Source: Octopus sinensis (lineage: Eukaryota). From it: a DNA stretch of 64,000 nt. The notes under the pieces were generated by a model, which was not told the origin of the DNA, made no database searches, and worked only from the letters and a program-made list of their open reading frames with translations. The stretch lies in assembly GCF_006345805.1 (NCBI RefSeq), contig NC_043014.1:44082001-44146000 (forward strand), in the 5' to 3' direction. Made by a program: the position numbers and the translations under genes. Shown here piece after piece: positions 8,345 through 61,318 of the stretch. Positions within the stretch are counted from its first letter, which is position 1, and each line of letters starts with the position of its first letter.

Positions 8345-8402
8345 GCATTCGAATCCACAACACAATTTCAATTCTTAGTGTAGGTCATCAAACTTCACTT
8401 AG
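8345..8402 (-). promoter_or_regulatory. Conserved upstream module of 4TM copy 1
   Basis: Sense AAGTGAAGTTTGATGACCTACACTAAGAATTGAAA; same motif found upstream of the paralogues. Confidence 0.6.
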
Positions 8403-8654
8403 GTTTTTAATGTTGTTAGAAAAATAATGAATACCACCTCTCGATTTGTGTCCAGTGGCGGAGGCCTGTAACTCAGTTGTTAAGGTGTGAGTAGCCATGA
8501 TCATAAGACTGCAGTTTCGATTCCTGGGCCAGGTAATGCGTTGTGTTGTTGTGTTCTTGAGCAAAATATTTCATTTCACCTTGCTCTTGTCCACTCAGCT
8601 AGTGAATGAAGTAAGAATAAAATGAAAAATGTTTTTGGAGGAAAAAATAAATGA

Positions 8655-8805
8655 TGTGTGGTAAGTAGCTTGTTTACCAACCACATGGTTCCGGGTTCAG
8701 TCCCACTGCGTGGAACCTTGGGCAAGTGTCTTCTACTATAGCCTCGGGCCGACCAAAGCCTTGTGAGTGGATTTGGTGGACGGGGCCTGAGGGAGGCCCG
8801 TCGTG

Positions 8806-8854
<49 letters not shown>

Positions 8855-9050
8855 CTGTGTTTGTCCCACCAACATCACTTGACAACCGATGCTGGTGTGT
8901 TTACGTCCCCGTAACTTAGCGGTTCGGCAAATGAGACCGATAGAATAAGTACTAGGCTTACAAAGAATAAGTCCTGGGGTCGATTTGCTCGACTAAAGGC
9001 GGTGCTCCAACATGGCCACAGGCAAATGACTGAAACAAGTGAAAGAGTAA
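8655..9050 (+). mobile_element. CORE-like tRNA SINE with internal (TA)n(TG)n
   Basis: tRNA-like head, then ACCTTGGGCAAGTGTCTT CORE-like segment; related copy at ~58200-58470(-). Confidence 0.8.
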
Positions 9051-10070
9051 AGAGATATAAAAATTAAAACTTGCCTTGTAAAATGTTTTTACAAGGCATA
9101 AAACAAATAATTCTAACTTTTGTACAAAGCCAATAATTTTAGAGGGGGTAGGGTTAGATAATACCATCCATATCTAGTGTTCAGCTGGTACTTATTTTGT
9201 CGATCCAGAAGGAATGAAAGGCAAAGCCGACCTCGGTGGAATTTGAACTCAGAACATAAAGATGGCCAAATGCCGCTGAATAGTTTGCCCAGTGCGCTAA
9301 CGATTCTTATTTCTTTATTGCCCACAAGGGGCTAAACATAGAGGGGGCAAACAAAGACAGACACAGGGATTAAGTCGATTACACCGACTCCAGTATGCAA
9401 CTGGTACTTCATTTATCGACCCCGAAAGGATGAAAGGCAAAGTCGACCTCGGCGGAATTTGAACTCAGAACGTAGCGGCAGACGAAATACTGCTAAGCAT
9501 TTCGCCCGGCGTGCTAACGATTCTGCCAGCTCGCCGCCTTGCTCGAGGGACACATTGAAAACAAGGGAAGATGAAACATTGACTAAACCTTCCCCTCAGA
9601 TTAGAGGCATTGTGTCTATACTAGAAACCGTTATTAAAGTGTGGTGGGCTGGTAGATTTCTAAGAGAGTCAAGCAAAATGCCCTGTGGTCTTTTGGCTCT
9701 TCACGATCTGACTTCAAAACATTCTGTTCTCTGTTCATCTCTCCGAGTCCCATACAGGAACTACCAGTCAAGTACCAGGATGGGGTAGGATCAATGATAC
9801 CATTTTACCGATTCCTTTCAAAATTACGAGCCGTGTACCTAAATTAGGAAATTGTTATTAGAACGGTTGGATTAGCATAATTGTTAGAGCGTTTGATGAA
9901 ATCCAATGGGGGCATGAAGGTATTTGTTGTGGCTATCTATGGTTTGAGTTCAAATCCCGCAGAGGTCAATTTGGCTTTTTATATATTCGGGTTGAGAAAA
10001 ATGAACCAGTGTCTATTTATTGACCGTTTCCTTCTCTGAAAATTGGCGGCTTGTTGTGTCTTCTACTGGT

Positions 10071-10430
10071 GGAGGTGCAATGGCCCAGTGGTTAGGGCAG
10101 CGGACTCGCGGTCATAGGATCGTGGTTTCGATTCCCAGACCGGGCGTTGTGAGTGTTTATTGAGCGAAAACACCTAAAAGCTCCACGAGGCTCCGGCAGG
10201 GGATGGTGGTGATCCCTGCTGTACTCTTTCACCACAACTTTCTCTCACTCTTACTTCCTGTTTCTGTTGTACCTGCCTTGTCACTCTCTGTGTCACGCTG
10301 AATATCCCCGAGAACTACGTTAAGGGTACACGTGTCTGTGGAGTGCTCAGCCGTTAATTTCACGAGCAGGCTGTTCCGTTAATTCGGATCAACCGGAACC
10401 CTCGTCGTCGTAACCGACGGAGTGCTTCCA
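10071..10430 (+). mobile_element. tRNA-Arg-headed SINE (OR-like)
   Basis: Full copy with TSD CTTCTACTGGT. Others at 12905-13473(+, internal duplication), 19377-19682(+), 34843-35025(+), 44627-45009(-), 45330-45695(-), 56248-56632(+). Confidence 0.9.
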
Positions 10431-13400
10431 CTTCTACTGGTAGAATCGTTAGAACTTCAGACAAAAATGCAACCAAATTTTGAGTTTAAACCTTGTCAGC
10501 GACAAATTGACCTTTGTTGAATTTCATATATATTATAATAGAGTTAAGAAAAAAACCCCAGCTGTATTGTAGGAATTGTGGACATTTGAGAGCCAAATGA
10601 ACGTATCCTGCTTTTGTAAAATAAATTTTATTGTTTCTGCCTCATTTCGGTTGAGTAGATTTATGGGATCTTTTCGGTTTGAGGTAGTTTTTAACATAAT
10701 TTCTCGGTAACTAAAAAATTTTAAACTTCGTATACTGGTAGAATGTGTTTATAAAACATCTTTTTCTCTTGGCTTTATTGAGAAAATTCTATGGTTTATA
10801 AGATATTTGTTTTTTTCTTCAATTTCTGCAATTTCAACCAATCAATGACGTCCATTGAGGTAAGAAAAAAACAACATTCTGTGCCGTATGAATATGTCCC
10901 TCGTTTAAGAAACAGATTGGGTTTATTTACATTTGTGAAGAAAAAAAGATACCCTTACCCCCACCCTCCCTAACTAACCCCAAGACAGATTGAAATGCAA
11001 TAGATCGATTCTAGGGTCATAATTATGGGTGACAATTTCATATGACACCGCTAGAAAAAACTGCCGTTCAAACCGAAAAGATCCCTGAATTCAAACGTCA
11101 CCGAGGTTGACTTTACTTCTTACCTCTTTGGGGTCGATAAAATAAGTACCAAATGAACACTGGAGTTGATGTAATCAACGATCCCCTCACTTAAAACTGC
11201 TTGTTGTGAGCCAAAACTTGAAACTAAGAAAGGTGGCGAGCTGGTGGAATCGTTAGTGCATCAGACAAAATGCTTAACGGCATTTCTCGCGATTCTGTAT
11301 GTTATGAGTTCAAATTCCGCCGGAGTCGACTTTACTTTTCATTGATAAAATAAAGTTCCTGTCAAACACTGGGGTTCATGTAATCGGATCTTTTCGGTTT
11401 GAACGGCAGATTTTTCTAGCGGTGTCATATGAAATTGTCACCCATAATTATGACCCTAGTATCGATCTATTGCATTTCAATCTGTTTTAGGGTTAGGGGT
11501 GGGGGGAAGGGTAACTTTTTTTCTTCACAAATGTAAATAAACCCAATCTGTTTCTTAAACGAGGGACATATTCATACGGCATAGAATGTTTTTTTTTACC
11601 TTAATAGACGTCATTGATTGGTTGAAATTGCAGTAATTGAAGAAAAAACAACAAATATCTTACAAACTATAGAATTTTCTCAATAACGCCAAGAGAAAAT
11701 GATGTTTTATAAACACATTCTACCAGTGTACGAAGTTTAAATTTTTTTAGTCACCTAGAAATTATGTTAAAAACTGCCGTTCAAACCGAAAAGATCCATG
11801 TAATCAATTAACCCCTCCCCCCATTGATGCTGACCCTGTGCTAAAATTTGAAACCCTTCCTATGTAGCTGGCTTAATTGACTCAAAGAGGAATTTTGTGT
11901 GTCCGTGTTTATTGAATTTGGATATTCTGTTTTCGTAAGACAAAAAAAATAAGGGATCTTTTCGGTTTGAACAGCAGTTTTTAACATAATTTCTAGTAAC
12001 TAAACAATTTTAAACTTCGTATACTGATAGAATGTGTTTATAAAACATCTTTTTCTCTTGGCTTTATTGAGAAAATTCTATAGTTTCTAAGATATTTGTT
12101 GTTTTTTCTTCAATTTCTGTAATTTCAACCAATCACTGACGTCCATTGAGGTAAAAAAACATTCTGTGCCGCATGAATACGTCCCTCGTTTAAGAAACAG
12201 ATTGGGTTTATTTACATTTGTGAAGAAAAAAAGATACCCTTCCCCCCACCCCTAACCCTAAAATAGATTGAAATGCAATAGATCGATACTAGGGTCATAA
12301 TTATGGGTGACAATTTCATATGACACCGCTAGAAAAAACTGCCGTTCAAACCGAAAAGATCCAAAATGGGAATTGCTCCATTATTTTTCCAGAGCAAATT
12401 ACGAGAACTCTATTTGTATTTTATTAGGCAAAATATAATCACGTTGAAAGCATTGGTTTTTCGTTCGACCATCGAAGTTAAGCAACGTCGAGTCAAGTTA
12501 GTATTTCGATGGCTGACTGCTTGGAACCTAAATGCTGAAAGTCTTAATTTTCAAGGCGGTACACCAGCATGACCGCAGGCCAACGACTGAAACTAGTAAA
12601 AGTTAAACGATCTAAACTTGCTCCTGAGCAAATGCACCTCTTCACCCTTTTATTGTTCGGATCAACTTCATTCTCACTTTATCTCCCTCAATGTTTTGGA
12701 TCCGAACTCTAAAGACAGGATCAATAAAATATTGGGATCTTTTCGGTTTGAACGGCAGTTTTTTCTAGCAGTGTCATATGAAATTTTCACCCATAATTAT
12801 GACCCTAGTATCGATCTATTGCATTTCAATCTATTTTAGGGTTAGGGGTGGGGGGAAGGGTATCTTTTTTTCTTCACAAATGTAAATAAACCCAAACTCC
12901 CTTTCCGTGATTAGGGCAGCGGACTCGCGGTCATAGGATCGCGGTTTCGATTCCCAGACCGGGCGTTGTGAGTGTTTATTGAGCGAAAACACCTAAAAGC
13001 TCCACGAGGCTCCGGCAGGGGGTGGTGGTGATCCCTGCCGTACTCTTTCACCACAACTTTCTCTCACTCTCTTACTTCCTGTTTCTGTTGTACCTGTATT
13101 TCAAAAGGGCCGGCCTTGTCACTCTCTGTGTCACGCTGAATATCCCCGAGAACTAACGTTAAGGGTACACGTGTCTGTGGAGTGCTCAGCCACTTACGAG
13201 GCTCCGGCAGGGGGAGGTGGTGATCCCTGCTGTACTCTTTCACCACAACTTTCTCTGACTCTCTTACTTCCTGTTTCTGTCGTACCTTGTATTTCAAAGG
13301 GAGCCGGCCTTGTCACTCTCTTCTGTGTCACGCTGAATATCCCCCGAGAACTACGTTAAGGGTACACGTGTCTGTGGAGTGCTCAGCCACTTACACGTTA

Positions 13401-14942: not shown

Positions 14943-14989
14943 GTCTAGAAAGACGAGAAAAAAAAAGAAGCTTCTAGCAACAGCCTTCA

Positions 14990-16035: not shown

Positions 16036-17169
16036 TTATCGATTTTGAAGAGATGGGAAATTCATCCGCAAGCCCAGTAAACACAACAGAGTCAAAAGTG
16101 TGATGCTGTTGACGAGAACAGCCAACACAATCCAGTCCTGTTGTAAACCAAAGCTAACTGTAGCAGACATGATTTTAAATAAAGTACATACGAGACACTG
16201 GATGAGACGGCGGTTGCGCAAAATCGCTCCCCGTTTCGAAAATGGGAAAATTATACAAAAGATTATCAACGCACTGCCATCTATAACCAGGTCTAGAAAA
16301 GCACTCATGTATTCAATTACCGTCTTTGGAAAGTTGTAAGCTATCTTCAACAGATGTATTGTGCTGCATGAGAAACTGAATACGCATAACGTCAGACAGA
16401 CGAGTAGATAGAGCCAGTGTAATTTATAATAATTCGTAGGGAGCCGTTGGGGCCGCTGTCGGTCGTATTGCTGGGGTTGCCGAGATCCTCTTCGTGTAGT
16501 CATTTCTATGCTTTCTTCGTTGCCGAGATTGTTGGAAACGAGTAATGGTGAGGGTCTTGCCCACACAATATTCGCGGCTCGTTGCAAATTGTTCATACTT
16601 GGAGCATTATACAAATTAACCCGCATACTATCTTCATTAGCTCTCAAATTATTATCAGGTCTATCTCCATCCGTTATCAGATTATCTTCAGGGTTATCTC
16701 CATCCGTTACTAAAATATCTTCAGGGCCATCTCCATCCGTTCCCCTATCTTCAGGGCTATCTCTATTCGTTATCAAATTATCTTCAGGGCCATCTCCATT
16801 CGTTCCCATATCTTCAGGGCTATCTCTATTCGTTATCAAATTATCTTCAGGGCCATCTCCATCCGTTCCCATATCTTCAGGGCTATCTCCATCCGTTCCC
16901 ATATCTTCAGGGCTATCTCTATTCGTTATCAAATTATCTTCAGGGCTATCTCCATCCGTTCCCATATCTTCAGGGCTATCTCTATTCGTTATCAAATTAT
17001 CTTCAGGGCTATCTCCATCCGTTCCCATATCTTCAGGGCTATCTCGATTCGTTATCAAATTATCTTCAGGGCTATCTCCATCTGTTCTTAAATTTTCCTC
17101 AGAATCGTCTTCATCCGTTCTCAATTTTCCCCTAGAATTGTCTCCATCAGTTCTTTCCGAGTCCTCCAT
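16036..17169 (-). CDS. 4TM family copy 2 (377 aa) with expanded acidic N-terminal repeats
   Basis: ATG at 17169 (MEDSERTD); in-frame (GTDGDSPEDNLITNRDSPEDM)n repeats; NAPSMNNL, EESIEM, HWLYLL, FCIIFPF and FGLQQDW motifs. Confidence 0.85.
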   Translation of the reverse strand: MEDSERTDGDNSRGKLRTDEDDSEENLRTDGDSPEDNLITNRDSPEDMGTDGDSPEDNLITNRDSPEDMGTDGDSPEDNLITNRDSPEDMGTDGDSPEDMGTDGDGPEDNLITNRDSPEDMGTNGDGPEDNLITNRDSPEDRGTDGDGPEDILVTDGDNPEDNLITDGDRPDNNLRANEDSMRVNLYNAPSMNNLQRAANIVWARPSPLLVSNNLGNEESIEMTTRRGSRQPQQYDRQRPQRLPTNYYKLHWLYLLVCLTLCVFSFSCSTIHLLKIAYNFPKTVIEYMSAFLDLVIDGSALIIFCIIFPFSKRGAILRNRRLIQCLVCTLFKIMSATVSFGLQQDWIVLAVLVNSITLLTLLCLLGLRMNFPSLQNR

Positions 17170-18356
17170 TCTTTCTAGGGATATAATCTCCAGCTGCTGA
17201 TATGAAACCAAACGGATCTCAAAATTTTCTTCCACTGCCCAAGCTTTGTATTTCTTATCTAAAAAGCAGCAATGAATTTAACAAAAAAAAAAAGTCTACT
17301 TATCTTGTTCGGTGTTCAAACTGTCTTAAATGAACTAGTCCAACCCCCCCTCTCTCTCGTTTATTATTCGAAACTACGACACGGTTTCAATTCTTAGTTA
17401 AGTCAAAAAATAAAAAAATTATTTGATGTCCTTGGAAGTGCATGAACGACATATCCTTTCTGTTTGTTTCTCTTAGAATAAATTACTTCTATGTCATCCA
17501 CATTGCTATTTATTAAATCTGTGGTACCAGCCTACCCTTTGGCGTCACGCTCCTAAAATTTTACTTATCAAAAATCAGATGTTCGCATTCTCACCGCGGT
17601 TAGATTTTAACTAAAAACATAAACACCAGAAAAAAAAAAAAAACATCAACCGACGATTTAAACGCAGTTTCATTTTGGCGGAATCTACTTTGTGGCAAAC
17701 ATCGAAACCAAGTCCCAGGTCTGGAACTAACTTCTTTCAATCGTACCATCAGTATCGTCCTGGGAAGGGACATAATCGTTACTCTCTTATTAAGACACAT
17801 GTAAGACATCAAGTGAAATGTTCTCAGCCATAAAGTGAAACCAAGTGGCTTTTACAGCTTGTCAAGAGCTTACCTTTTACTCTGCTACTATCAACACAAT
17901 TCTAATATTGGCTTCAAATTTTGGCACAAGGCCAGCAATTCCAGGGAAGATTTAAGTCGATTACATCTACCCCCAGTGCTCAACTGGTACTTATTTTATT
18001 CTTTTCTACATTAGGCACAAGGCCCGAAATTTGGGAGGAGGGTGACAGTCGATTAGATCAACCCCGGTACGCAACTGGTACTTAATTTATCGATCCCGAA
18101 AGCACGAAAGGCAAAGTCGACCTCGGCGGAATTTAAACTCAGAACATGAAGACAGACGAAATACCGATTTCTTTATTACTCATCAGGGGCTAACATAGAA
18201 GGTACGTGCACAATATCGGGGAACTAAAATTATAAAAAGGAGGCATAAAGAAAGAAGCAAAATTAAAAGAAACGAACGAATCATGAAAAATATGATATAA
18301 TGAGGCGGAATGCCCACTCGACCCCTGAAGTCGAATGGTTACAGAATAAACTTCCT

Positions 18357-21406: not shown

Positions 21407-22029
21407 TCACAGATTTTGAGGATATGTAAAATTCGACCTCAGCATCGGTATACATAACAGAGTTAAAAGCAAGATGCTGCTGCCAAGAACAGCTAGTATA
21501 ATCCAGTCGTAATATAAACCAAAGATGATGCTGGCGGACACCAGATTACATAGAGTGCATAGGACACATACGATGAGATTGCGGTCTGGGAAAACTAAAC
21601 TTTGTCTCGGAAACGGAAAAACGATGCAGAAGATTGCTAACGAGTTGCCGGCTATAACCACATTTAGAACAATACTCCAGTAGCCATATACGGTGTTTGG
21701 AATATTGTGAGCTAGTTTTAACAGACGACAAGACTAAAGGTTGAACTGAACACAGACAACGCCAGATAAATGAGTAAATAGGCCCAGTGTATACGATGAT
21801 TGGCAATGTGGTCTTTGTTCTCAAGTTGTTGGTGGTGGTGGTGTTGATGCCGTTGAGATCCTTCAAGCGCGGTCATTTTTAGGTTTTCCTCATTATGGAT
21901 ATTGAAGACAAGTAACAGACGACGTGTTTTCCACGATTCAGTCAATATTCGGAACAAATTGGCCCTAATTGGAGCGTTATTCAGATTTTCAACTTCACAG
22001 TCTGCATTAGTTTTTTCAGAATTTCCCAT
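21407..22029 (-). pseudogene. 4TM family copy 3, single-base frameshift (pseudogene or assembly error)
   Basis: ATG at 22029 (MGNSEKT..HWAYLLIYLALS); adding 1 nt at ~21727 restores LLKLAHNIPNTVYGYWSIVLNVVIAGNSLAIFCIVFPF..DW..QNL. Confidence 0.85.
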
Positions 22030-22373
22030 TCTGCGATATAATCTTTCTTCAGCTGTTTTGAAGCCAAATTTCCTCCGTCCCAAATATTGACAGTTAATCA
22101 AGTTTTAATATCTATCGTTTTTGAAATAATGGAAATTAATATTTTGCTTTGATTTTAAAAAGCTATCTTAAATGAACTATTCCATCATTTCACCTTCTGT
22201 TTCTTTTTATTTGTGTTTTTTCATTATTCAATCACACTTTCTTGCATCCACAACACAGATTCAATTCTTAGGGAAAGCCATCTAATCTCACTTTATTTTA
22301 TTAAATTTGCCACAAGGGCAGTACATAGAGTAAGGTAGCTTGCGGGCTGGACACGGACATTAATGAGATGAAT

Positions 22374-26300: not shown

Positions 26301-26474
26301 TTGAAAGCTACAAACCCGCCTCATTTGCACAAGGATGGGGGGAAAACGTTAAGAAAACTCTTGCCACAAGCAGAAAAATAGGTGTTTAAAAGAAAAAAAA
26401 AACTCAAAAATTCAACAACGTAATTAATCAACAGTGCAAATTCAATTAAACATAAATATTACAACTGTTATATA

Positions 26475-26587: not shown

Positions 26588-26618
<31 letters not shown>

Positions 26619-27918: not shown

Positions 27919-27957
<39 letters not shown>

Positions 27958-30094: not shown

Positions 30095-30928
30095 TTAAAA
30101 CAGAATTTTCTCCGACAGTATACTCACTTTTTTTGGCAGTGTCTGGGTAAATTTATCTGCAAAATAGGACATCAACCATGGTATATACAGCAGAAATAAA
30201 AGCATGGTAGAACTGATAAGAACAGCGACAGGTACCCATTCCCTATGTAGATGGTACATAACGCCAGCAGATACCACATTAAGAAAGGAACAAAAGAGAC
30301 AGATTAAGAACATGCGGTCTGAGAAACTTGCTCTTTTGTTTGCAAGATGAAAGATAACACAGAAGTTTATCAACGAGTTGATGGCTATAACCGTGTCTAG
30401 AATAATATTCCAAGAGTTTGGCATAGTTGAAAAATTGCGGATTCTTTCCGCTAGATCTATACAGCTGCAGAATAAGGTAATAAATGATAGCAACATGTAG
30501 GCTACCGTATGGAGCAATTGTATACTATGATCAGTAGTGTTCAGCTGGGTTTGCTGTTGAGCGCTGGATTCAGGTTTCGGAGATGGTTCTAACGCGGTCA
30601 TTCCTATAGTTTCTCCCTCGCTGCTGATATAAGAAACAAGTGACAGACGACGTGTTGGCCCCGAAACACCCGTGGTTTGTGACAAACTGCTTGTACTTTC
30701 ATCTGCTTTCTCATCACCACCACCAGGATTGGCTTCCTTATTTACATCAGAAAAAAGTGATGGACGACGTGTTGGCTCTGAAACATTCGTTGGCTTTGAA
30801 ACATCCGTTGGCTTTGAAACATCCGTTGGCTTTGAAACATCCGTGGTTTGCGGCAAATTGATTGTATGTTCATCTGTTTTATTATCACCATTTGGACCGC
30901 CTTCGTTACTTCTTTGATATTCTGCCAT
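30095..30928 (-). CDS. 4TM family copy 5 (277 aa)
   Basis: ATG at 30928 (MAEYQRS); PTDVSK repeats and a duplicated PTRR block; four TM segments with FCVIF and LHREW. Confidence 0.82.
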   Translation of the reverse strand: MAEYQRSNEGGPNGDNKTDEHTINLPQTTDVSKPTDVSKPTDVSKPTNVSEPTRRPSLFSDVNKEANPGGGDEKADESTSSLSQTTGVSGPTRRLSLVSYISSEGETIGMTALEPSPKPESSAQQQTQLNTTDHSIQLLHTVAYMLLSFITLFCSCIDLAERIRNFSTMPNSWNIILDTVIAINSLINFCVIFHLANKRASFSDRMFLICLFCSFLNVVSAGVMYHLHREWVPVAVLISSTMLLFLLYIPWLMSYFADKFTQTLPKKVSILSEKILF

Positions 30929-33758
30929 TCCTTCTCTAGACGTAACCTTCTCTTGCTGACACAATGAAAAATAATGTTTTCCCCCTCTGATATTTATAAC
31001 CAATTCACCATGTTTGGTTGTCTTAGGAAACAATAGAAATTATTAAAATACCTTGAGTTGAGTTTTTAAAAATCACTGAAATAAACTATTCCATCGTTTC
31101 AACTTCAGGGTTTTTTTTTACTCCAAGTCAATCACATTTTGCAGATCATTCTAATCCACGCGGTTTCAATTCTCGAGTTGACATTATCAAATTTAATTTG
31201 TGCTGCAAAATATTATTGGAAATATATGAACACTACTTGTCGCTCATATTCACATTGTTTATCACCAGTGGTATTCCATTTCACTGTTCAACTCGCCTTT
31301 TGTTTGGTATTTTGATTCATAATTCTCAATTAACAAAAAAAATAAACTGATGTCGATGTAATTGAATAACAACTTCTGCCTCTAAAACTGCTTGTCTTGT
31401 GTTAAAATTGGAAACAAGTAAGGACGGTGGATTTACAGAACTGCTATAATGTCGAGCAAATGCCGTGCTATATTTGTCTAGCTCTTTACGATCTGTGTTC
31501 GAATCCCAGTCAGGCCCATTTTGCCTTTCGTCTTTTGAATGTCGATGAAATAAAGTACCATTCAAGTACTGGGGCCGATTTAATGGACTTAACCTATTTC
31601 TTTACTACCCACAAGGGGCTAATCACAGAGAGGACAAACAAGGACAGACAAACGGATTAAGTTGATTATATCGACCCCAGTGTGTAACTGGTACTTAATT
31701 TATCGACCCCGAAAGGATGAAAGGCAAAGTCGACCTCGGCGGAATTTGAACTCAGAACGTAACGGCAGACGAAATACCGCAAAGCATTTCGCCCGGCGTG
31801 CTAACGATTCTGCCAGCTCGTCGCCTTTAATGGACTTAACCCTTCCCCTCAAATTGCTACACTTGGGCCTAAATTAGAAGCGATTCGCACTTTTTCCATA
31901 AGCAGAATCGGCAGAGAGTCGGACAAAATAGTTTTCAGGATTTCTTTAGGCTCTTTATGTTCTGAACTCAAATCCTGCCAAGTTCAACTGTACTTTTTTC
32001 CTTTGGGAGTTGAGAAAAAGTACCAATCAATCACAGGGTTCGATAGTATCAATTACAGTCCAGCCACTTGATCGTCGTCGATGACTAAAGCAGTCGCGAA
32101 AACGCCGTTGCTCTTCCCAAACAAGAGTCTTCAACAGAACACCAATGTAGAAGCTCCAACGATCGCATTTCTTTATTTCATTTAATTTGCCACAAGGGCA
32201 TCACACAGATGGAAGCTTTGCGGGCTGGACACGGACATTAATGGGATGAATGATAATGATGCAAAAATGATGATGATGGGAGAAGACGAAAAACGCCCGC
32301 CGACTTTCGCTTCTCTAAAACAATGTTCTTTTTTTCCTTTTCCCCCCAAAACACAATGAGGCAATAAACCTCTTACTTAAACAACACAATGTTCAGAATT
32401 CTTTTTTCTTTTTTAAAACACAATGAGGCTGTAAACCTCGTACATTACACAAAAAGTCACATATTTCACATTTTGTAGACTCGTTCAGGTTATCCGGCCG
32501 ACCATTATCCTTGCTTCATTGAAGCATGTACTCGGTTCCAGGCCGGACCACACAGACATAAATCTGTAGGAGTCCTCCGGGAAGGAATTCATGATCCTGC
32601 ACAGATCATTATCTCATAGGACCTCCGCAGCCACCTGCGAAGGCCACTCAGGGTCCTCCGTGCCAACGATCGCATTTCTTAACAAGTGAGTGCCTGTCTA
32701 CAATGCAGTTGCTATACACCTAGTGTCATTCTTCCTTTGACCAAGATCTGCAGATTAATCAAGGATATAAGCTGTAGAAAAAAAAGTACCCCACACAAGA
32801 TGCTCATATCTGCACACTGCTCATGAATCAGTGTAGATGACTGCCTCAGTGCAAGTATGGACATTACTAGTCACAACAATCCGAGCTCTCCAACCAGAGG
32901 ATAGTGAGAGCTGGTGGACTGCCAGACAAGCGACTGCCAAGAAGCTCCAAATGTGTCAAACGAGAAACAAAGCAGATCACGGCGGTCAAGCGATAATGTA
33001 TAACGGAGGTGACATATGTCTGCAACATCTACCCCACCTTTCAAAAATAGCTCCCACTCGGTGCATTTCTGGGTGAGATTGGCTCTGCTTCCCTCCGTCC
33101 AACGCCCCACAGCACTATCTGACGGCATGGACTTACTTAAACAGGTGCCGAACTGTAAACCCACCAACTTGTTCCTGTTAAGTTTTGACTCTGTGCAGAT
33201 CTTGTGTTCCACTTCGATTTTCATGGTATCAAACTCCAGGAAGATGACAGTCTGCATATATCGAGTCGGCGCTTTCGATTCCCCGTTTGAACGAGGTGCC
33301 CTCCAACAGCTCCAATTTCTGCATTAGTGGTTCGAGAGAGTCATTTCGTATAGAAAAAAAACGAGAGAAGACATCCTTGACGAACCAAACGCTTGATTTT
33401 AAACGGTTCCGATAGGTTTAATTTGAGTAAATGCCGTTGAAGAGAGGACGGTAACAGTCTTCCTAGAGCCGCTAAGAATCAATGGTGTAAGCTATCAAAA
33501 TTGATCCAAGTTTATTTGCTTTACACAAATCCAGGTTTACTACTAACCATCTTACAGTGTATCGCATAAAAACGAGGATCGGTTATCTTGGATAGACGGG
33601 GTCGGTATCGTGCACATTTGCACTTTCCCGAATGCGCTACTGACAAGTATCAACATTTTCACTCGCATCTTGGTTAAAAATCTTAAACTCTGTTTTATCG
33701 GAAACGGCATGTGGAACTGAGAACTCGCCCGTTTTGCCGCTAATTGCGGTAGACGTCT

Positions 33759-50385: not shown

Positions 50386-51777
50386 CTAACGGCCCCCTCC
50401 GCCAGCATCACTTACCTTTCCGTTTCCTATCACGATTCCAAAGTCTTTCACCTCACCTTTCATTTCTCTCTCAAACCTCTCTATCATATCATTTCTCATA
50501 TATTCTGACAAACAATTTATACGTAGTTCATTGCACTTGCTCATCAAAGAGCCCATGAGTTCGAAATCGAATACCGCATAACTTCCGTCCTCATACTCCT
50601 GCCATACATTGTCTTCAAAAAGCCTTCTTGCATTCTCTGTATCTCCCTTCCTCACAACACACAAAAAGTAGGACTGGGGCTTTTGTATGTTTTGTATGTC
50701 TGATTTCGTTTTTCTTGTAGGCGGGGAGTGGGTGGGATTGCTGTTTGCGGGGGCAGGATGGGTCTCCAAAGGTGTGGGTGGTGTTTGGGTGGGTTGGGGC
50801 TTCACACAGTTTTTCCTTTTCTTTCCTTTTCTCTTCTTTCTGACCTCTTCATACTCTTTTTGCGTCTCTTCCTCATCTGTCGTTTCCCTTTCCATCTGCT
50901 TCTCCTTGATTTCTTCTTCTTTTGGGGCTTCCTCTTTTGGAGTTTCCTCAACAATTTCCTTTTCTCCCGGTGGGGGAGGGCAGAAGGCTCTTATGTGGCC
51001 CCTCAGGCCACACTTGTAACAACGTGGAGCTCTGCCCTCCACCCACACTCTCATAATCACGTCTCCCAATTTAATGCTCTCCGCCAGGTCCGCCAGCACC
51101 TCACTCTCCGCCTGCACGTTCAGCTCCACTGTTACTCCTCTCCAGCCCTCGGTCCTGACCGAGGCATGGAGAATATCAACTTTCTCCTCGTGGCCGCTGA
51201 TCACAGCCGCCACAATCCATTCAGCCTCCACGTTTGGTGGCACTCCCTCCACCCTTACTCGTGTAATCCTTCTATTCATGTACATAGGTAGGAGTGTTAC
51301 CTTTTCTGACCTCACCGCCCTCACCGCCATCTTCCTCGCTGCAGTCTCACTCTTAAAATGTACCACTACGGTACCGTACTTCGATCCTCGAGTCAAAAAA
51401 ATGATTTCCTCCTCCGATTTTCTCAGGGCCTCCTCTATCCATTCCATTTTTACGATCTCTATTTTCTTTCTTTCGTTCAGGAACACCCTGTAAATTATAG
51501 TCCTCTTATTGTACCATTCCTTTCTCTTTGGCGGTGGTTCCAGTTCCACCTCGCCGCTGTCCTTCCTCATATACCTCTGGAAACCTGGCAATTTTTCTAG
51601 GTTTATTTCATTTTCCTGTTTCGTCTTCTTTTTTGCAACTCCTGCGTACGTTTTCCTGTTTTCAGTCTCCACATTTTTTACCTCACCGATTTGCTCGTTT
51701 TCAGAGTTCGATGTCTCCGACAAGCTCTCAAATATCCATTCTTCCTCCGACTCCTCCACAAGGGAGTGGTCATCCAT
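50386..51777 (-). CDS. Intact LINE ORF1/gag-like protein (463 aa) with CCHC knuckle
   Basis: ATG to stop uninterrupted; followed directly by a ~130-bp 3'UTR and tail, with no ORF2. Confidence 0.88.
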   Translation of the reverse strand: MDDHSLVEESEEEWIFESLSETSNSENEQIGEVKNVETENRKTYAGVAKKKTKQENEINLEKLPGFQRYMRKDSGEVELEPPPKRKEWYNKRTIIYRVFLNERKKIEIVKMEWIEEALRKSEEEIIFLTRGSKYGTVVVHFKSETAARKMAVRAVRSEKVTLLPMYMNRRITRVRVEGVPPNVEAEWIVAAVISGHEEKVDILHASVRTEGWRGVTVELNVQAESEVLADLAESIKLGDVIMRVWVEGRAPRCYKCGLRGHIRAFCPPPPGEKEIVEETPKEEAPKEEEIKEKQMERETTDEEETQKEYEEVRKKRKGKKRKNCVKPQPTQTPPTPLETHPAPANSNPTHSPPTRKTKSDIQNIQKPQSYFLCVVRKGDTENARRLFEDNVWQEYEDGSYAVFDFELMGSLMSKCNELRINCLSEYMRNDMIERFEREMKGEVKDFGIVIGNGKVSDAGGGGR

Positions 51778-52094
51778 CTCCTCCCGCCTGACAGGCCGAA
51801 AACGGCCGTCAAAACAGAAAAAGTGTAACGCGCAGAACCAGCGGAACGCGAAACCGCGTCAACGCCGTTCAGAACTTCCACAACAACAACAACGCTTTTT
51901 GTTCTTTTTTACCGAATTTTACGAGCGTAAAAAAAACACGACCGAACTCAAGCTCTTTCTTATTTCTTATTTCTTTATTACCCACTAGGGGCGACACAGA
52001 GGGGGACACCAAGAGACATGGGGACATATAACATTATAATTAAACTTTATGAAAATGAATTGTTAAACGAAAAAATGATAAAATGAAAGCGATA

Positions 52095-52295
52095 CCAAGA
52101 AACAATATTGGTTACAGAAATTGATTTTGATTTTTTTTTAAATGTCTTTTTAAATAAACTATTCCAACGTTTCATTTTCGTTTTTTATTTTATTTTATTT
52201 TATTCATTCAATCTAAATTTCTTGCATGCATATCATTGTAATCCGCGCGATACAGTTTCAATTCATAGTGGATGTTATCAACTACCACTTAGGCA
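52095..52295 (-). promoter_or_regulatory. Displaced upstream module of 4TM copy 7
   Basis: Plus strand AAGAAACAAT..AAATAAACTATTCCA..GTTTCAATTCATAGTGGATGTTATCAACTACCACTT matches the paralogue modules. Confidence 0.7.
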
Positions 52296-52482
52296 TCTAA
52301 TGCCAATGTTTCATGACTCAGTATTTCTTTATTTAAGCACTCAGGCTCTTACGCAGAGGGGAGGACAGCTTTCTTTATTAGGCATAAAGCCCCAAACACA
52401 GAGGGGACACCACAAGGACAGACAAGACTACAGTGGGGACAAAAACCATAAACGAACGTAAATGAAAAACTGTAAAATGAAA

Positions 52483-53815: not shown

Positions 53816-54961
53816 ACCCTTGCTATTGTTGTTGCTTGTCTTTGTTACTGCATGCTGTTGTCGTTGTAGAGATGATAGCGTGACTCCCTTTTCTTATTTC
53901 CTGTTTTAGTTGTGAGGGCAGAATATTCTCAGGTGGTTAGTTGTTCCACACGAATAACATATCGGTCTTTTGCCCTCTACAGTTACCCACAACTCCATCC
54001 AATTTGACACGGAGATGAGCTTTGGAGTCTTTCAGAAATGATTAGGTTTTATTAAGAGAATGAACATTGATATAGTTCAAGACTAGTTATGACGCCTAGT
54101 TCACTAACTCCATGCTGGCCAGTGTCCACCAAAGAGCCAGTACTTGTGGACCTCCTCGTGTTGGCAACTTCTTTGTCCATTTTCTCAAATAAGTGCGAAA
54201 GAAAGCAGCGTTTTCACAGCAACAGGTGACCCCCGAATACTGCAGTACGAGGAACTCGTCCACAAATGGGACTTCGACCGCCACCAATCTGCCTAGCTCT
54301 AGATATATACTCTTGCCTTGCCGTACATTGTAGAGGGCTCTTTCTACTATTTTTGTTCGAAGCCATCACCAGGCGACGGCTTTTTAACAAAAGCGAGTAA
54401 CATATTTCTAGTAGTTGCAGCCAAAATTTCAGGTGGGGCGTAAAGGCTGCCACCTCAGTATTCCTGAATAGAGTCCTAAAGTTTGGTTCATTTGTCTTCT
54501 AGGGAGAGAATGCGCAGCTTCCTTGTGGAAACTATTCTTTCTCTGTTTATACATTTCCTAGTTCTTTACTGTCCACAAGGGGTTACACACAGATGGGACA
54601 AACAAGGATAGACAAACGGATTAAGTCGATTACATCGACCCCCAGTGCGTAACTGGTACTTATTTAATCGGCCCCGAAAGGATGAAAGGCAAAGTTGACC
54701 TCGGCGGAATTTGAACTCGGAACGTAGCGGCAGAAGAAATACCTATTTCTTTACTGCCCACAAGGGGTTACACACAGAGGGGACAAACAAGGATAGACAA
54801 ACGGATTAAGTCGATTACATCGACGGCCCCAATGCGTAACTGGTACTTATTTAATCGACCCCGAAAGTATGAAAGACAAAGTTGACCTCGGCGGAATTTG
54901 AACTCAGAACGTAGCGGCAGACGAAATATTCTCTGTTTATACAACTCCACTATCTTGAAGT

Positions 54962-55002
54962 GTAAGTGAAGTTTGATGTCAACTAAGAATTGAAACCGCT
55001 TC
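54962..55002 (+). promoter_or_regulatory. Conserved upstream module of copy 8
   Basis: GTAAGTGAAGTTTGATGTCAACTAAGAATTGAAACCG. Confidence 0.65.
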
Positions 55003-55247
55003 GTGGATTTGAATGATCTGCAAGCAAGAAATGTTGATTGACTAAAAGAAAAAGAAAAAAAGAAAAGGCACATGTTGAAATTATGGAATAATTCATTCGA
55101 GGCCGCTTTTTAGAGTGAAACAATGATTTTCGAACTTCATTTCTATTGGTTTTTCAGAGAATAAAGAATCAAAAAACACGGTCAGTTTAAACGGAGGAGG
55201 CTTTTCATAAAATAGCGCAGCAAAAGGCAATTACATTTCCAGAAAGA

Positions 55248-55895
55248 ATGGAGAATTCTGAAAGCATTGATGTAGCTAGTGCTGTGGAGAACTTGAATGA
55301 TGCGCCAAGTACGAGTAATTCGCAACGAAATCCAACTGAGTCATGGCCGACACGCCGTCTATCATCTATCAGCGAAGAAACCGAAGAAATGAACGACTTT
55401 GGAGAATTTGTGCAACAAGAACGCGGCGATCAGCCTCAGACGCAGCGGCGCATTACTAACTATTATAGTATACACTGGGTTTATATACTCCTCTACCTGG
55501 TGTTATCTGTGATTATTTTATCTTGCGGCCTCATCGACCTATTGCAACAAGTTCGCAATTTTTCACATACATCGGAATATTGGATTACTATTCTCGACGT
55601 GGTTATCGTCGCCAACTCATTGACAATCTTCTGCATCGTCTTCCCGTTTTCGAAGCGAAGATCCTATTTCCCAAATCACAATATCGTCCACAGTCTCCTA
55701 TGTACGATATCTATCCTGTTGTCCGCTACGATTTGCTTCGGTTTAAATTCTGATTGGATTATGGCTGCCGTTATAATCTGTTGTTTCCTACTTTTGCTTC
55801 TGTTGTGTATACCGAGTTTGATATCAAATTTTACAGCTCGTCAAACCCTGAACCAACTCCAGCTTTTTATGTTCAATCTTTCATTCCTGCTTTGA
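55248..55895 (+). CDS. 4TM family copy 8 (215 aa), inverted relative to copies 1-7
   Basis: ESWPTRRLS, IHWVYILLYLVLS, EYWITILD, FCIVFPFSKR and FGLNSDW motifs. Confidence 0.87.
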   Translation: MENSESIDVASAVENLNDAPSTSNSQRNPTESWPTRRLSSISEETEEMNDFGEFVQQERGDQPQTQRRITNYYSIHWVYILLYLVLSVIILSCGLIDLLQQVRNFSHTSEYWITILDVVIVANSLTIFCIVFPFSKRRSYFPNHNIVHSLLCTISILLSATICFGLNSDWIMAAVIICCFLLLLLLCIPSLISNFTARQTLNQLQLFMFNLSFLL

Positions 55896-56077
55896 AATAC
55901 TTTATCATATAATTTGTCAGAACAATCGAATAGCTTCCTACTTTTGCTTCTGTTGTGTATACCGAGTTTGATATCAAATTTCACAGCTCGTCAAACCTTG
56001 AACCAACTCCAACTTTTTGTGTTCGATCTTTCATTCCTGCTTTGAAATACTTCATCATATAATTTGTCAGAACAATC
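55785..56077 (+). repeat. 150-bp tandem duplication of the 3' end of copy 8
   Basis: 55785-55927 repeated at 55935-56077. Confidence 0.92.
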
Positions 56078-58659
56078 AAATATTTTGCTTTTAAAAACAT
56101 TTGATAAAATAAGTGTAACCAAACATTTTTAAATCAGAAAAATTAGTCTCCAATAGTTTAGTCTCATTTTTAATATTCATAACTTCTTGATAATTTTCCT
56201 TGCATCACCCACCACTAGCTTTTTCAAACTATCATACATAAATACGTGGAGGCGCAATGGCCCAGTGGTTAGGGCAGCGGACTCGCGGTCGTAGGATCGC
56301 GGTTTCGATTCCCAGACCGGGCGTTGTGAGTGTTTATTGAGCGAAAACACCTAAAAAAAGCTCCACGAGGCTCCGGCAAGGATGGTGGTGATCCCTGCTG
56401 TACTCTTTCACCACAACTTTCTCTCACTCTTACTTCCTGTTTCTGTTGTACCTGTATTTCAAAGGGCCGGCCTTGTCACTCTCTGTGTCACGCTGAATAT
56501 CCCCGAGAACTACATTAAGGGTACACGTGTCTGTGGAGTGCTCAGCCACTTACACGTTAATTTCACGAGCAGGCTGTTCCGTTGATTCGGATCAACCGTA
56601 ACCCTCGTCGTCGTAACCGACGGAGTGCTTCCATTCACATAAATACATCTACTCTCCGACCAGTTTGAATCACTAGCAACTCTTACAAAAATCTACCCTC
56701 TTGTATTTGTAATATGTCTCACATCATCCCACTCTGAAGTCCTCAATCTCGATTACTTCAACGCTCACAACTGATCATAGCTCTCACACTCATCCTACCA
56801 GTGCAGAAGCTAAATCTCTTGTAAATCTCAGCTCCTTGCATGAAAACTTGTTGCATCCCTTGTTCACCTTTTAAATCGATACTTATATACACCAAACCCT
56901 CTTGATCTCTTTCTCAGCTCACGACCAACGCATTACTGGAATATTTCCTCTCGGGGATCTTTTCGGTTTGAACGGCAGTTTTTTCTAGCGGTGTCATATG
57001 AAATTGTCACCCATAATTATGACCCTAGAATCGATCTATTGCATTTCAATCTGTTTTAGGGTTAGGGTTGGTTAGGGTGGGGGAAGGATATATTTTTTTT
57101 CTTCAGAAATGTAAATAAACCCAATCTGTTTCTTAAACGAGGGACATATTCATACGGCACAGAATGCCTTTTAACTCAATAGACGTCACTGATTGGTTGA
57201 AATTACGGAAATTGAAGAAAAAAAAACAACAAATATCTTACAAACTATAGAATTTTCTCAAAGCCAAGAGAAAAATGTTTTATAAACACATTCTGCCAGT
57301 ATAGGAAGTTAAAAATTCAAGACCCACGCATTACTGGAATATTTCCTCTCAGCTATCAAGTCATCCGTCTACAACCTTATCGTAAACCCCACGCACAAAG
57401 ATACTACACAACTCCCCAATTTCACCGACCCATTGCAATACAATATTAACAATAGGAAAATATTTCCTGTGTACTTGTGTTTACAAGGGGTAGACAAGCA
57501 CCCCCATCCAGCTAAGCCTTCTCTGAGATATTTAGAAATTTAATAGGAAAATATTTTCTCAGAATCACCTGCTTTATGGTTTGTAGATTTTCACGCGAAT
57601 TTTATGGGTTCAGACCACGAATTTCTTGATTACAACACGTGTATGATTGTGAGAGAAAAAACGCTGTAATGGGATCCTTTCGGTTTGAACGGCAGTTTTT
57701 TCTAGCGGTGTCATATGAAATTGTCACTCATAATTATGACCCTAGTACCGATCTATTGCACTTCAATCTGTTTTAGGGTTAGGGGTGGGGGAAAGGGTAT
57801 CTTTTTTTCTTCACAAATGTAAATAAACCCAATCTGTTTCTTAAACGAGGGACATATTCAAACGGCACAGAATGTTTTTTACCTCAATAAACGTCGGTGA
57901 TTGGTTGAAATTGCAGAAACTGAAGAAAATATTACACAAATATCTTACAAACTATAGAACTTTCTCAATAAAGCCAAGAGAAAAAGATGTTTTATAAACA
58001 CATTCTACCAGTATACGAAGTTTAAAAGTGTTTAGTTACGTGGAGATTATTTTTAAAAACTGCCGTTCAAACCGAAAAAATCCGAATTGCTAACTCAATT
58101 TTTTTATACATCTGTTTTCCTGCTTCTCAAACAATGGTCAGTTCTCAACTCCACCTTTCGTCCATCGTGCATTCTTTTTTTTTTCTTTTTTTTTAAATAT
58201 TCGTTTCAGTCATTTGACTGCGGCCATGCTGGAGTATCGTCTTTAGTCGAACAAAGCAACCTCAGGACTTATTCTATCGGTCTGTTTTGCCGAACCGCTA
58301 AGATACGGGGACGTAAACACACCAACATCGGTTGCCAAGCGATGTGTTTGGTGGGGACGGACACAAATACACACACATACGATGGACTTCCTTCAGTTTC
58401 CGTTTACCAAATCCACTCACAAGGCTTTGGCCGGCCAGAGGCTATAGAAGACACATACCCAAGGTTCCACAGACTAGAATATTTTAAGTACCCTGCCTAC
58501 ACTGTCATATGTAAAGCCCTCAGCAGTGTCAATCTTTTTTTTTTTTAATTTGTAATTTCTTTGTCCGGTTGCAATTTCACACTCGCAACTTGGATCAAAA
58601 TTTTGTAAATTTTTGAATAAATTAAGTTAATTTTTTGGTTCAAAAAGCAAGGTCATGTA

Positions 58660-58975
58660 GGGGTACAGGGTGGGTGGTCATACAAAGAGTTCTGGCCATT
58701 TCTGGTCAAGAGAGACTTTGAACCGAGCGGTCGTCGGCATCTTCACTATCCTCGTTCGGCAGCTTATTCCACGGATCTGCAATCCGGACGGAGAAAGCCC
58801 CCCCTCTCCTTCGATTGAGATGAAATCGTCGCAGATAGAGCTTTTCGGAGTGACCCCACAGCCGACGCTCTGGAGCAGGAGTGAAGAACAGCTCTTTCGA
58901 GGGGTTACACTTTCCGCTTATGATGTTGTGAGCGAGAATGAGATCACCACGGCGTCATCTGTTTTTCGTTCTCCT
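58660..58975 (-). mobile_element. CR1-clade LINE 3' fragment
   Basis: Minus strand reads GHSEKLYLRRFHLNRRRG..SVRIADPWNKLP. Confidence 0.75.
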
Positions 58976-59215
58976 TAATTGTTACAATGCAATCGTTTTT
59001 GCTACGCTGACTTATCAGTGCAGCTATCTCTCTCGAACCAAAGGTTTCTATGTTTCAGAATTCTCACCGGCTCCTGCATCAAATATGAAATCGGACCAAA
59101 ACGTCAAGGAAATATTTTTTGCTAATGATCAAATCAAATAAAATAAAATAAAATAAAATGTTCCTTGCAAAAACTTTTACATGACATGAAACAAATCCAA
59201 GCTCTGAAATATATA

Positions 59216-59631
59216 TATTTCTTTACTGCTCACAAGGGGCTAAACTCAGAGGGGACAAACAAGGACAGACAAAGGGATTAAGTCGATTACATCGACTCCA
59301 GTGCGTAACTGGTTCTTAATTTATCGACCCCGAAAGGATGAAAGGCAAAGTCGACCTCGGCGGAATTTGAACTCAGAACGTAACGGCAGACGAAATACCT
59401 ATTTCTTTATTACCCACAAGGGGCTAAACATAGAGGGGACAAACAAGGACAGACAAAGGATTAAGTCGATTACATCGACTCCAGTGCGTAACTGGTACTT
59501 AATTTATCGACCCCCGAAAGGATGAAAGGCAAAGTCGACCTCGGCGGAATTTGAACCCAGAACGTAACGGCAGACGAAATACTGCAACGCATTTCGCCCG
59601 GCGTGCTAACGATTCTGCCAACTCGCCGCCT
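59216..59631 (-). mobile_element. Two-unit SINE array
   Basis: Single outer TSD AAGCTCTGAAATA(T/C)ATA. Confidence 0.9.
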
Positions 59632-61120
59632 AAGCTCTGAAATACATAATTTTGGAAACGGCTGTAATCCTGACACTAGTAGCAAAAACGATATTAAGAA
59701 TTGACTGTGTGATAATGAAGGTCGCTTTGAAATCACGCAGGTTCGGCTTCAGTTCCACTGTGCGGCGCTGTTTGTCAAGCGGTGTTGCGGGACAAGCACA
59801 TACACAGTTCTCTCTCTGCAATGTTCATAGGTATTTCTGCGAAAAACAATGTCATAATGACTCCCCACCCCCGCATTCTAACGATTCTGCTAATCCGTCA
59901 ACCTTCCTCGTTTCTAATTTAAGCACAAGGCCAGTAGTTTGGGGGAGGGGCGGGAGGAAGTAGTTTTTCTATTACATTGATCCATCCTTACTTGATTGGT
60001 ATTTTATTTTATGGGCACTGAAAGTATAAAATAAAATACCTATTTCTTCATTACCCACAAGGGGCTAAACATAGAGGGGACAAACAAGGACAGACATAGG
60101 TATTAAGTCGATTACATCGCCCCCAGTGCGTAACTGGTGCTTAATTTATCGACCCCGAAAGGATGAAAGGCAAAGTCGACCTCGGCGGAATTTGAACTCA
60201 CAGCGTAACAGCAGACGAAATACCGCAAAGCATTTCGCCCGGTGTGCTAACGCTTCTGCCAGCTCGCCGCCTTAGTATAAAATAAAATACCAATCAAATG
60301 GAGTATTTGAAGCGCTTCGTTTTGCAACAGAAAGTTGAACATTGAAATGGGATACCACTAGTGATGAGCAGCGTAAATTTGAGCGCAGATATAGCTGTGG
60401 GATTCAGAACATTGTGGTTTCAGGTTAAATCCCTCTGCGTGATGCATTGAGTTAGTGTCTTCTACCATAGGTTCGGGAGGACCGAGGCTTTTAACCCTTT
60501 AGTGTTTAAACCGGCCATATCAGGCCAAAATTGTTTTCCTGTTTTATGCTCAAACCAGCCAGCTCTGACCTCTCACACCTACCCTACAAAGTCATTACAA
60601 AAATGAACAGGGACATCATCAAAATCCCGGAGTTACAAGATGCTGTACAATTCATTTAAAACAAAGTGATTAGAGAGGCTTTACATTTGACATCTGAATG
60701 CTAAAGGGTTACATCTGAATGCTAAAGGGTTAAGAGTGAAATTTGGGAAATGGTTATTTGGAAGCTCACCGAAGCGACCGTCCCTGTTTTGTGGTTGACC
60801 ATTTTAATAGTTATGTTCATTTATCATCATCACCATAATCCGATTCGAGCATTCGCAACAAGACCTCCAACAAGGAATAGCATCTTTTGTGTTGCCAATG
60901 TTACCCTGAAAGATTTTATGACCGCCACTCTCTTACCTGAAGTGTAATATTCTTAAACAAGAATTTAGACAGGAAAGTGTTTGCAGCTTGTTACAAAGTT
61001 TACACTCTTATTCTGTAATATCTCAACACATTTATAATATTGATATCTTGTCTCTAATATGTCTATAAGAAAGGGAAACTGGGGGAAAAAGTAGTGTTCA
61101 TACAGTTCAACTGATATCTT

Positions 61121-61318
61121 GAAATGAAAGTGAAGTTTGATAACTTCAACTAAGAATTGAAACCGCGTCGTAGATGGTAATGTACTCCATGCAAAACAAT
61201 AAGATTGTATAAAAGAAAAATAATAAGACGGACGTTGAAATTTTGGAATGGTTTATTTAAGGTCAGTTTCTGAAGTCAGAACAAAGATTTGCTTCATTTC
61301 TATTATTTCTTACAGAAT
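61121..61318 (+). promoter_or_regulatory. Orphan upstream module of a probable 9th 4TM copy
   Basis: GAAATGAAAGTGAAGTTTGATAACTTCAACTAAGAATTGAAACCG..TTTAAGGTCA..TTTCTTACAG; inverted paralogue of 42465-42662. Confidence 0.72.

What the first reader, a model, noticed from the sequence alone, without database searches (positions are those of the whole stretch)
8345..61168. Conserved IRF-element-like upstream module in front of the 4TM genes
Seen: ~210-330 bp upstream of the ATG (where not displaced) there is a colinear block, (GA)AAGTGAAGTTTGAT-n-AACTAAGAATTGAAACCG. It occurs at ~8345-8402, 17380-17405, 22250-22295, 31158-31200, 42612-42662, 52250-52292, 54962-55002 and 61121-61168; the first half is degenerate in some copies. 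It is followed by GGAATAGTTCATTTAAG and a pyrimidine tract often ending in AG, which looks like a splice acceptor. Established: IRF proteins bind AANNGAAA / GAAANNGAAA repeats, and molluscs encode IRFs. The copies at 61121 (GAAATGAAAGTGAAGT) and ~42650 (GCGAAAGTGAAGT) closely resemble IRF-E sites, and AATTGAAAC is a half-site. Inference: the cluster may be a co-regulated, IRF-inducible antiviral-type gene battery.
Basis: partly seen in the sequence, partly recalled or inferred. Interest (0 to 1): 0.72.

Follow-up and report, generated by a model that had tools for sequence, protein, structure and literature searches.

The report
Conserved interferon-type promoter of octopus genes
Every gene in a cluster of fast-evolving octopus membrane-protein genes keeps a short DNA signal upstream that changes far more slowly than the gene itself and mostly matches the binding site of interferon regulatory factors (IRFs), so these genes are likely switched on together in immune responses, though binding, induction and any antiviral role are untested.

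Summary
The block is real. It precedes all 16 genes of a tandem cluster (8 copies in the window, 6 on the minus strand); four more copies have no gene. The proteins are four-helix membrane proteins whose named relatives are all octopods. The 10-bp core AATTGAAACC evolves at 0.13 times the fourfold-site rate (0 of 2,000 simulations), so it is under selection and not just duplicated DNA. It fits the IRF consensus AANNGAAASY in 13 of 16 gene-linked copies. The genome encodes three IRFs. Against: G and T positions that IRF does not specify are equally fixed. Read backwards, the core is nearly the B-box of an abundant tRNA-SINE, so TFIIIC or a repeat-reading factor is a real rival. The splice-acceptor reading is unsupported. 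No binding, induction or start-site data exist here. Verdict: a selected proximal-promoter module (about 0.9), likely IRF-driven (0.55); antiviral battery about 0.3.

The parts
8202..8410 (-). Upstream module of gene g08; core 8363-8374 is degenerate (GAATTGAAATTG, not IRF-E); TATA-like box starts at 8262
8458..8608 (.). tRNA-SINE copy just upstream of g08; its B-box, read on the gene strand, forms an IRF-E 144 bp above the core
7474..8076 (-). 4TM gene g08 (200 aa)
17277..17406 (-). Module of g17; core 17382-17393 intact; first half lost
16036..17169 (-). 4TM gene g17 (377 aa, repeat-expanded N-terminus)
22121..22295 (-). Module of broken gene g22; core 22256-22267 no longer IRF-E
21410..22029 (-). 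4TM pseudogene g22 (reading frame split in two frames)
31020..31210 (-). Module of g31; core 31161-31172 intact
30095..30928 (-). 4TM gene g31 (277 aa)
42468..42667 (-). Module of g42; core 42619-42630 intact
41802..42401 (-). 4TM gene g42 (199 aa)
52094..52300 (-). Module of g48, displaced about 3.8 kb from its gene by stacked retroelements; core 52253-52264 is IRF-E
48310..52095 (-). Stacked ORF1-only (zinc-knuckle) retroelements between module and gene g48, including ORFs 50386-51777 and 48983-50107; ends approximate
47656..48252 (-). 4TM gene g48 (198 aa)
54953..55159 (+). Module of g55; core 54987-54998 intact; TATA-like box from 55094
55248..55895 (+). 4TM gene g55 (215 aa)
61069..61080 (+).
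61117..61315 (+). Module of g65 (its gene lies beyond the window, extended coordinates 64426-65679); IRF-E 61122-61131; core 61154-61165; TATA-like box from 61254
61317..64000 (+). Two tandem ORF1-only retroelements between module and gene g65 (continue past the window end)

Best explanation
The block is a conserved upstream control module of an octopod four-helix membrane-protein gene cluster, and its slow-evolving core is likely an IRF-binding site that would let the whole cluster be induced together. Shown: one module per gene; purifying selection on the core and on the GGAATAGTTCATTTAAG block about 100 bp downstream; same-strand IRF-consensus sites at about -190, -79, -28 and the core in the least-interrupted promoters; three IRF genes in the genome. 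Inferred: the downstream block holds a TATA-like box with the start site about 30 bp after it, so the core would sit about 130 bp before the start. An octopus IRF (IRF1/2-like helix) would bind the core, helped by the ISRE where it survives, and raise transcription after nucleic-acid or cytokine signalling. SINE and other insertions have trimmed the distal sites in most copies, leaving the proximal core as the kept site. Least certain: that the proteins act as membrane antiviral effectors (about 0.3).
For: Core rate is 0.13 times fourfold sites (p 7e-11; 5 non-majority letters in 150; 0 of 2,000 simulations under each of two nulls, counting the best of all windows). No 10-site window of third codon positions falls below 0.62. 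IRF-E AANNGAAASY occurs 25 times on the gene strand and 0 times on the other in 20 promoter windows; 10 of the 25 are not the core. A full ISRE stands at -79 to -81 in 3 promoters (rate 0.1, p 0.022 against the local rate). Background: ISRE in 0.44% of random 200-bp windows; 3 of 108 background IRF-E sites have two more sites including an ISRE. The one spacer change (g112) keeps IRF-E. The core is broken in 3 of 5 orphan or pseudogene copies against 2 of 15 intact genes. Three IRF loci exist, two with an FRCALNS helix. Oyster IRFs activate ISRE reporters (PMC5557890, passages). The HLA-B7 IRF control probe has the same AGAA-NN-GAAA layout when read backwards (PMC2132685, passages). Protein dN/dS is 0.56 over 105 pairs.
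Against: Positions IRF does not specify (the G before AA, the TT spacer, the G after CC) are as fixed as those it does. Read backwards, TTCRANNC survives in 15 of 16 gene-linked copies, IRF-E in only 13 of 16. The three ISRE copies descend from one ancestral site, so they are one event; the longest-run permutation p is 0.076, and the -190 site is lost in g65. Half-1 is neutral unless 5 copies are masked by eye. The exact 14-mer outside the cluster shows no IRF-site clustering (2 of 48 independent loci against 17 of 150 background sites). Positive controls at the IRF and RLR genes were inconclusive because their start sites are unknown. There are no binding, induction or start-site data.
Confidence: 0.55

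Rival explanations
1. The core is a B-box-like site on the opposite strand, bound by TFIIIC (an extra-TFIIIC site or insulator) or by a factor that reads the tRNA-SINE B-box; the IRF likeness is incidental.
For: 30 of 80 fetched off-cluster copies of the exact 14-mer are B-boxes of one tRNA-SINE family. The 12-bp core differs from that family's majority B-box (reversed) at one CpG position. TTCRANNC is kept in 15 of 16 gene-linked copies, and g121 has a canonical GTTCRANNC. This reading explains the fixed G and the spacer T.
Against: G53, a key yeast TFIIIC contact (PMC11724288, passages), is T in 14 of 16 copies. Positions free in a B-box are invariant. Module flanks are no closer to the SINE than to unrelated loci (29 of 50 and 45 of 50 score as high). 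g112 changes A58. It does not explain the ISRE at -79 or the -28 site.
Confidence: 0.15
2. The core is the site of another, possibly lineage-specific factor (for example a C2H2 zinc-finger protein) that gives tissue-specific rather than immune expression.
For: The invariant footprint is a full 12 bp, wider than either consensus. Other conserved blocks (TGCATGCA at 0.23-0.30 of neutral, TTTGAT) show a multi-factor module.
Against: It leaves the same-strand ISRE and IRF-E cluster as a coincidence of about 0.4-3%. No motif library was available, so no candidate factor was tested.
Confidence: 0.22
3. The block is ordinary duplicated or gene-converted DNA, or a UTR or splicing element, with no transcription-factor role.
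For: All copies are paralogous. Contigs of runs X7, X8 and X9 run across the module into the coding region, so the core may at times lie in RNA.
Against: Neighbouring module DNA evolves at about the neutral rate while the core is at 0.13. Module and coding trees share the main clades. GT follows the box in only 7 of 16 copies. The AG is unconstrained. No splice joint was seen. No Rfam match.
Confidence: 0.08

Closest known systems
IRF-E / ISRE promoters of vertebrate interferon-stimulated genes (e.g. HLA-B7 and VCAM-1 IRF elements; PMC2132685 and PMC5861432, passages)
   Same: AANNGAAA core; a full GAAANNGAAASY in three promoters; several same-strand sites within 200 bp of a TATA-like box; the core has the AGAA-NN-GAAA layout of the HLA-B7 probe.
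   Different: The most conserved site is a single site with fixed flanks and spacer. Only 3 of 16 gene promoters keep a full ISRE. No binding or induction is shown.
Oyster RIG-I/MAVS-IRF pathway (PMC5557890, passages)
   Same: Molluscan IRFs activate ISRE reporters. This genome holds three IRFs and an RLR.
   Different: In the passages read, the oyster work used human reporter promoters, not native mollusc target promoters. No oyster relative of this protein family was among the named hits.
Small interferon-induced membrane effector families such as IFITM and IFI27/ISG12 (recalled, from no call)
   Same: Tandem, fast-evolving, small membrane proteins behind ISRE-type promoters.
   Different: No Pfam match of the membrane domain over cut-off; four helices; only generic bundle matches. 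An analogy, not homology.
tRNA-SINE B-box / extra-TFIIIC sites
   Same: The reversed core is 11 of 12 identical to the majority B-box of an abundant SINE here.
   Different: T at position 53 in 14 of 16 copies; no SINE homology in the flanks.

Membership tests
IRF-regulated (ISRE/IRF-E) promoter | AANNGAAA(SY) consensus site | tested here: met
   13 of 16 gene-linked cores and 2 of 4 orphans; consensus from PMC5861432 and PMC2132685
IRF-regulated (ISRE/IRF-E) promoter | Full dimer site GAAANNGAAA | tested here: inconclusive
   Present upstream in 3 of 16 gene promoters (one ancestral site, plus a second in g112); the core itself has AGAA as its first half
IRF-regulated (ISRE/IRF-E) promoter | Site under purifying selection | tested here: met
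   Rate 0.13 of fourfold sites, 0 of 2,000 simulations
IRF-regulated (ISRE/IRF-E) promoter | Constraint confined to IRF-read bases | tested here: not met
   The flanking G's and the TT spacer are as invariant as AA and GAAA
IRF-regulated (ISRE/IRF-E) promoter | Located near the transcription start | tested here: inconclusive
   Only contigs were available; two low-depth 'RNA?' contigs from two studies begin near 55156-55162, downstream of the core, a weak hint
IRF-regulated (ISRE/IRF-E) promoter | Host encodes IRF with an intact recognition helix | tested here: met
   Three loci with PF00605; FRCALNS in two, FRNALNK in one; likeness to the vertebrate helix is recalled
IRF-regulated (ISRE/IRF-E) promoter | IRF binding and IRF-dependent induction | not testable with these tools
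   Needs EMSA, CUT&RUN, reporter and challenge RNA-seq
TFIIIC B-box | GTTCRANNC including G53 | tested here: not met
   1 of 16 gene-linked copies canonical; TTCRANNC part in 15 of 16; G53 contact from PMC11724288; the 9-letter consensus is recalled
tRNA-SINE remnant | Homology to the SINE beyond the B-box | tested here: not met
   No SINE-profile hit overlaps any of 20 cores; flank scores are no better than unrelated loci
snRNA-type (PSE) promoter | Match to this genome's U1 upstream motif | tested here: not met
   Best module scores -0.3 to 8.7 against 17-24 for the 10 training U1 copies; background 90th percentile 5.9
Splice acceptor / short UTR intron | Conserved GT...AG and a spliced joint | tested here: not met
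   GT in 7 of 16; AG at neutral rate; no joint in contigs of X7, X8, X9 or X4 laid on g55 only, run kind not on record for X7-X9
Known 4TM families (tetraspanin, claudin, MS4A, IFITM) | Profile or distinctive fold match | tested here: inconclusive
   No membrane-domain Pfam match over cut-off in 6 proteins; generic four-helix matches, top Z 14.4 (rmsd 2.1, 113 aligned) to a designed bundle

The most novel reading that the evidence does not exclude
This cluster is an octopod-invented family of interferon-type effectors: orphan four-helix membrane proteins, induced together through IRF sites kept across 16 duplications, giving cephalopods their own counterpart of IFITM-like restriction factors and a native IRF target promoter in a group where no interferon homologue has been identified.
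Probability: 0.3. Interest if true: 0.68.

Novelty: new member of a known kind. Interest (0 to 1): 0.42.

Why it matters
Molluscs have RLR-MAVS-IRF signalling but few known native target promoters or effectors, and no interferon homologue was identified in squid (PMC7665748, passages). A 16-copy natural footprint gives an exact site, natural variants that separate the IRF and B-box readings (g112, g121, g08), and a candidate effector family to test. If TFIIIC or a repeat-reading factor is, it shows a SINE-like box kept as a Pol II promoter element. The kind of system (an ISRE-type promoter) is well known, so the surprise is moderate.

Tried and rejected
RNA evidence: no listed holder is on record as RNA, and only contigs could be laid, so start site, strand and level are not shown. 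Depth differences between runs X7, X8 and X9 were not used. Positive controls: no viperin match in the genome (not proof of absence). Stretches of 30 kb upstream of the three IRF genes hold 8 ISRE matches, but their start sites are unknown. The RLR region has one ISRE-containing cluster 73 kb above the confirmed CARD exon, not assignable. A genome-wide regulon for the exact 14-mer: 103 hits against 56 for the reversed control; the excess is explained by SINE B-boxes, and there was no clustering in 80 fetched of 91 listed off-cluster hits. PSE promoter idea: rejected. SINE origin of the module: not detected. Rfam on 54900-61500: 0 matches. Word-indexed homologue search: none. Protein Atlas: best 0.79, uninformative. 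Fold search: no distinctive match; this absence excludes no family. More distant paralogues in the genome with three divergent queries: none beyond the cluster and two fragments. Literature: 'octopus' + 'ISRE' (3 papers, none on this by listing), LOC106882980 (0), and searches found nothing on this cluster by listing. No supplements were read; octopus immune RNA-seq tables there could bear on inducibility. PMC4139789 (one passage) was irrelevant. No JASPAR or other motif library was available, so consensus patterns were used instead of matrices.

Full report
1. Observation. All eight copies are present; six are on the minus strand, in the orientation of their genes. The window is G000:C18:44082001-44146000 of a 2.7-Gb genome. 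With 100 kb added on each side, the cluster holds 16 genes: 15 open and one split across two frames. A profile of the eight window copies finds 20 modules, one per gene plus four orphans lying 0.6-1.3 kb downstream of genes. A genome-wide DNA search gave 7 matches, all in the cluster. Coordinates above 64000 are the window's numbering extended. The core lies 228-315 bp before the ATG in the 12 genes measured.

2. The proteins. They have a disordered N-terminus and four predicted helices (model pLDDT 68.5; hydropathy). Identity to g55 over the membrane domain is 37-57%, and dN/dS is 0.56 over 105 pairs. A profile search of 1.84 billion proteins gave 19 hits. Of the 18 looked up, 13 carry names, all octopods: Octopus bimaculoides 1, O. 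sinensis 1 and Argonauta hians 11, seven of those on one contig. Five are unnamed. The remaining hit was a short repetitive match and was not looked up. No Pfam family covers the membrane domain over its cut-off, and fold matches are generic bundles.

3. More than duplication? I used the 15 intact genes, with a tree from the coding regions and 42 fourfold sites as a neutral yardstick. The core AATTGAAACC runs at 0.13 of that rate (p 7e-11), with 5 non-majority letters in 150. None of 2,000 simulated modules reached this in any window, under either null. The module tree gives the same result. The GGAATA...TTTAAG block runs at 0.35 and the stretch after it at 1.13. Module and coding trees share their two main clades, which argues against wholesale conversion.

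4. Is it an IRF site? The consensus is AANNGAAA, and the dimer site is GAAANNGAAA(G/C)(T/C) (PMC5861432 and PMC2132685, passages). The core fits in 13 of 16 gene-linked copies and 2 of 4 orphans. In 20 windows of -300 to +30 there are 25 such sites on the gene strand and none on the other; 15 are cores. The three promoters least interrupted by insertions (61150, 81453, 111001) carry a full ISRE at -79 to -81. Two carry a further site at -190, and two carry one at -28. It is one ancestral event, with a chance of 0.44% per random window or 3 of 108 given a site. It evolves slowly (p 0.022 against the local rate), but the longest-run test gives only p 0.076. The genome has three IRFs and an RLR. 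Oyster IRFs activate human ISRE reporters (PMC5557890, passages).

5. Results against. The invariant footprint is 12 bp and includes bases IRF leaves free. I fetched 80 of 91 listed off-cluster hits of the exact 14-mer (103 hits in all). Thirty are reversed B-boxes of a tRNA-SINE, and only 2 of 48 independent loci have a second IRF-E nearby, against 17 of 150 background sites. The reversed core keeps TTCRANNC in 15 of 16 gene-linked copies. It has T for the key G53 in 14 of 16 (contact from PMC11724288, passages), and its flanks show no SINE homology. Base-level variation alone therefore does not separate IRF from a B-box reader; the extra ISRE tips the balance to IRF. Positive controls were inconclusive.

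6. The downstream block. GT follows it in 7 of 16 copies, and the AG is unconstrained. Contigs of X7, X8 and X9 (one study; kind not on record) cross the supposed intron of g55 without a joint. The block ends in TATTTAAG or CATTTAAG in 12 of 16 copies, and a CA lies 28-30 bases from its first base in 10 of 16. I read this as a TATA-like box and start site; this is inference, and the copies are not independent. Two low-depth 'RNA?' contigs from two studies begin near 55156-55162, a weak hint. A U1-type PSE was tested and rejected.

7. Mechanism. Shown: a selected multi-block upstream module on every gene. Likely (0.55): IRF binds the core and, where kept, the distal sites, and co-induces the cluster. 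Speculative (0.3): the proteins are antiviral membrane effectors, suggested by tandem expansion, fast evolution and analogy with IFITM or IFI27 (recalled, no homology). Rivals: another factor 0.22, a B-box reader 0.15, no regulatory role 0.08.

8. Novelty. ISRE-type promoters are a known kind. I found no paper on this cluster or motif in the listings; no supplements were read. Verdict: new member of a known kind, interest 0.42.

Noticed in passing
window 48310-52095 (-), 61317-64000 (+); extended 106100-107400 (-): An ORF1-only zinc-knuckle retroelement family (654 candidates genome-wide) sits in sense orientation within about 60 bp after the TATA-like box of three different paralogues, at different junctions; one shows a 17-bp duplicated target. 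This points to a target preference near the predicted start site. In g48 it puts an open 463-aa ORF behind the module.
   Followed up: partly
window 8458-8608: A tRNA-SINE whose reversed B-box forms an IRF-E sits 144 bp above the one window core that has lost IRF-E in an intact gene. 18 of 31 scored copies of this SINE in 264 kb carry such a site, so the family scatters IRF-like sites.
   Followed up: partly
L160:2530-2635 (G000:C2:76302534-76302630): The only cluster of three same-strand IRF-E sites, including a full ISRE, in 150 kb around the RLR gene, 73 kb above its confirmed CARD exon; possibly the RLR promoter.
   Followed up: partly
window 31011, 42453; extended g73, g82, g86, g95, g112: An upstream ATG in a strong context lies 52-91 bp before the main ATG in 7 of 12 genes checked, mostly opening a short uORF; possible translational control.
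   Followed up: no
extended 74299, 104251, 112839, 119600: Orphan modules lie 0.6-1.3 kb downstream of genes, like the intact g86-g87 pair; likely relics of a second gene in an ancestral two-gene unit.
   Followed up: partly
G000 whole genome: No viperin match with TIGR04278; may be loss, introns or a search miss.
   Followed up: no
L010 (C6) and L020 (C24): Two dispersed fragments of the family with no module seen upstream by eye; the C6 one is 86% identical to g55 and follows a transposase-like remnant.
   Followed up: partly
window 16036-17169, 30095-30928; extended g65, g105, g112: The N-terminal disordered regions have expanded independently by different short tandem repeats.
   Followed up: no
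L121-L145: U1 genes fall into about four upstream families sharing one motif at -62 to -64, a candidate octopus PSE.
   Followed up: partly
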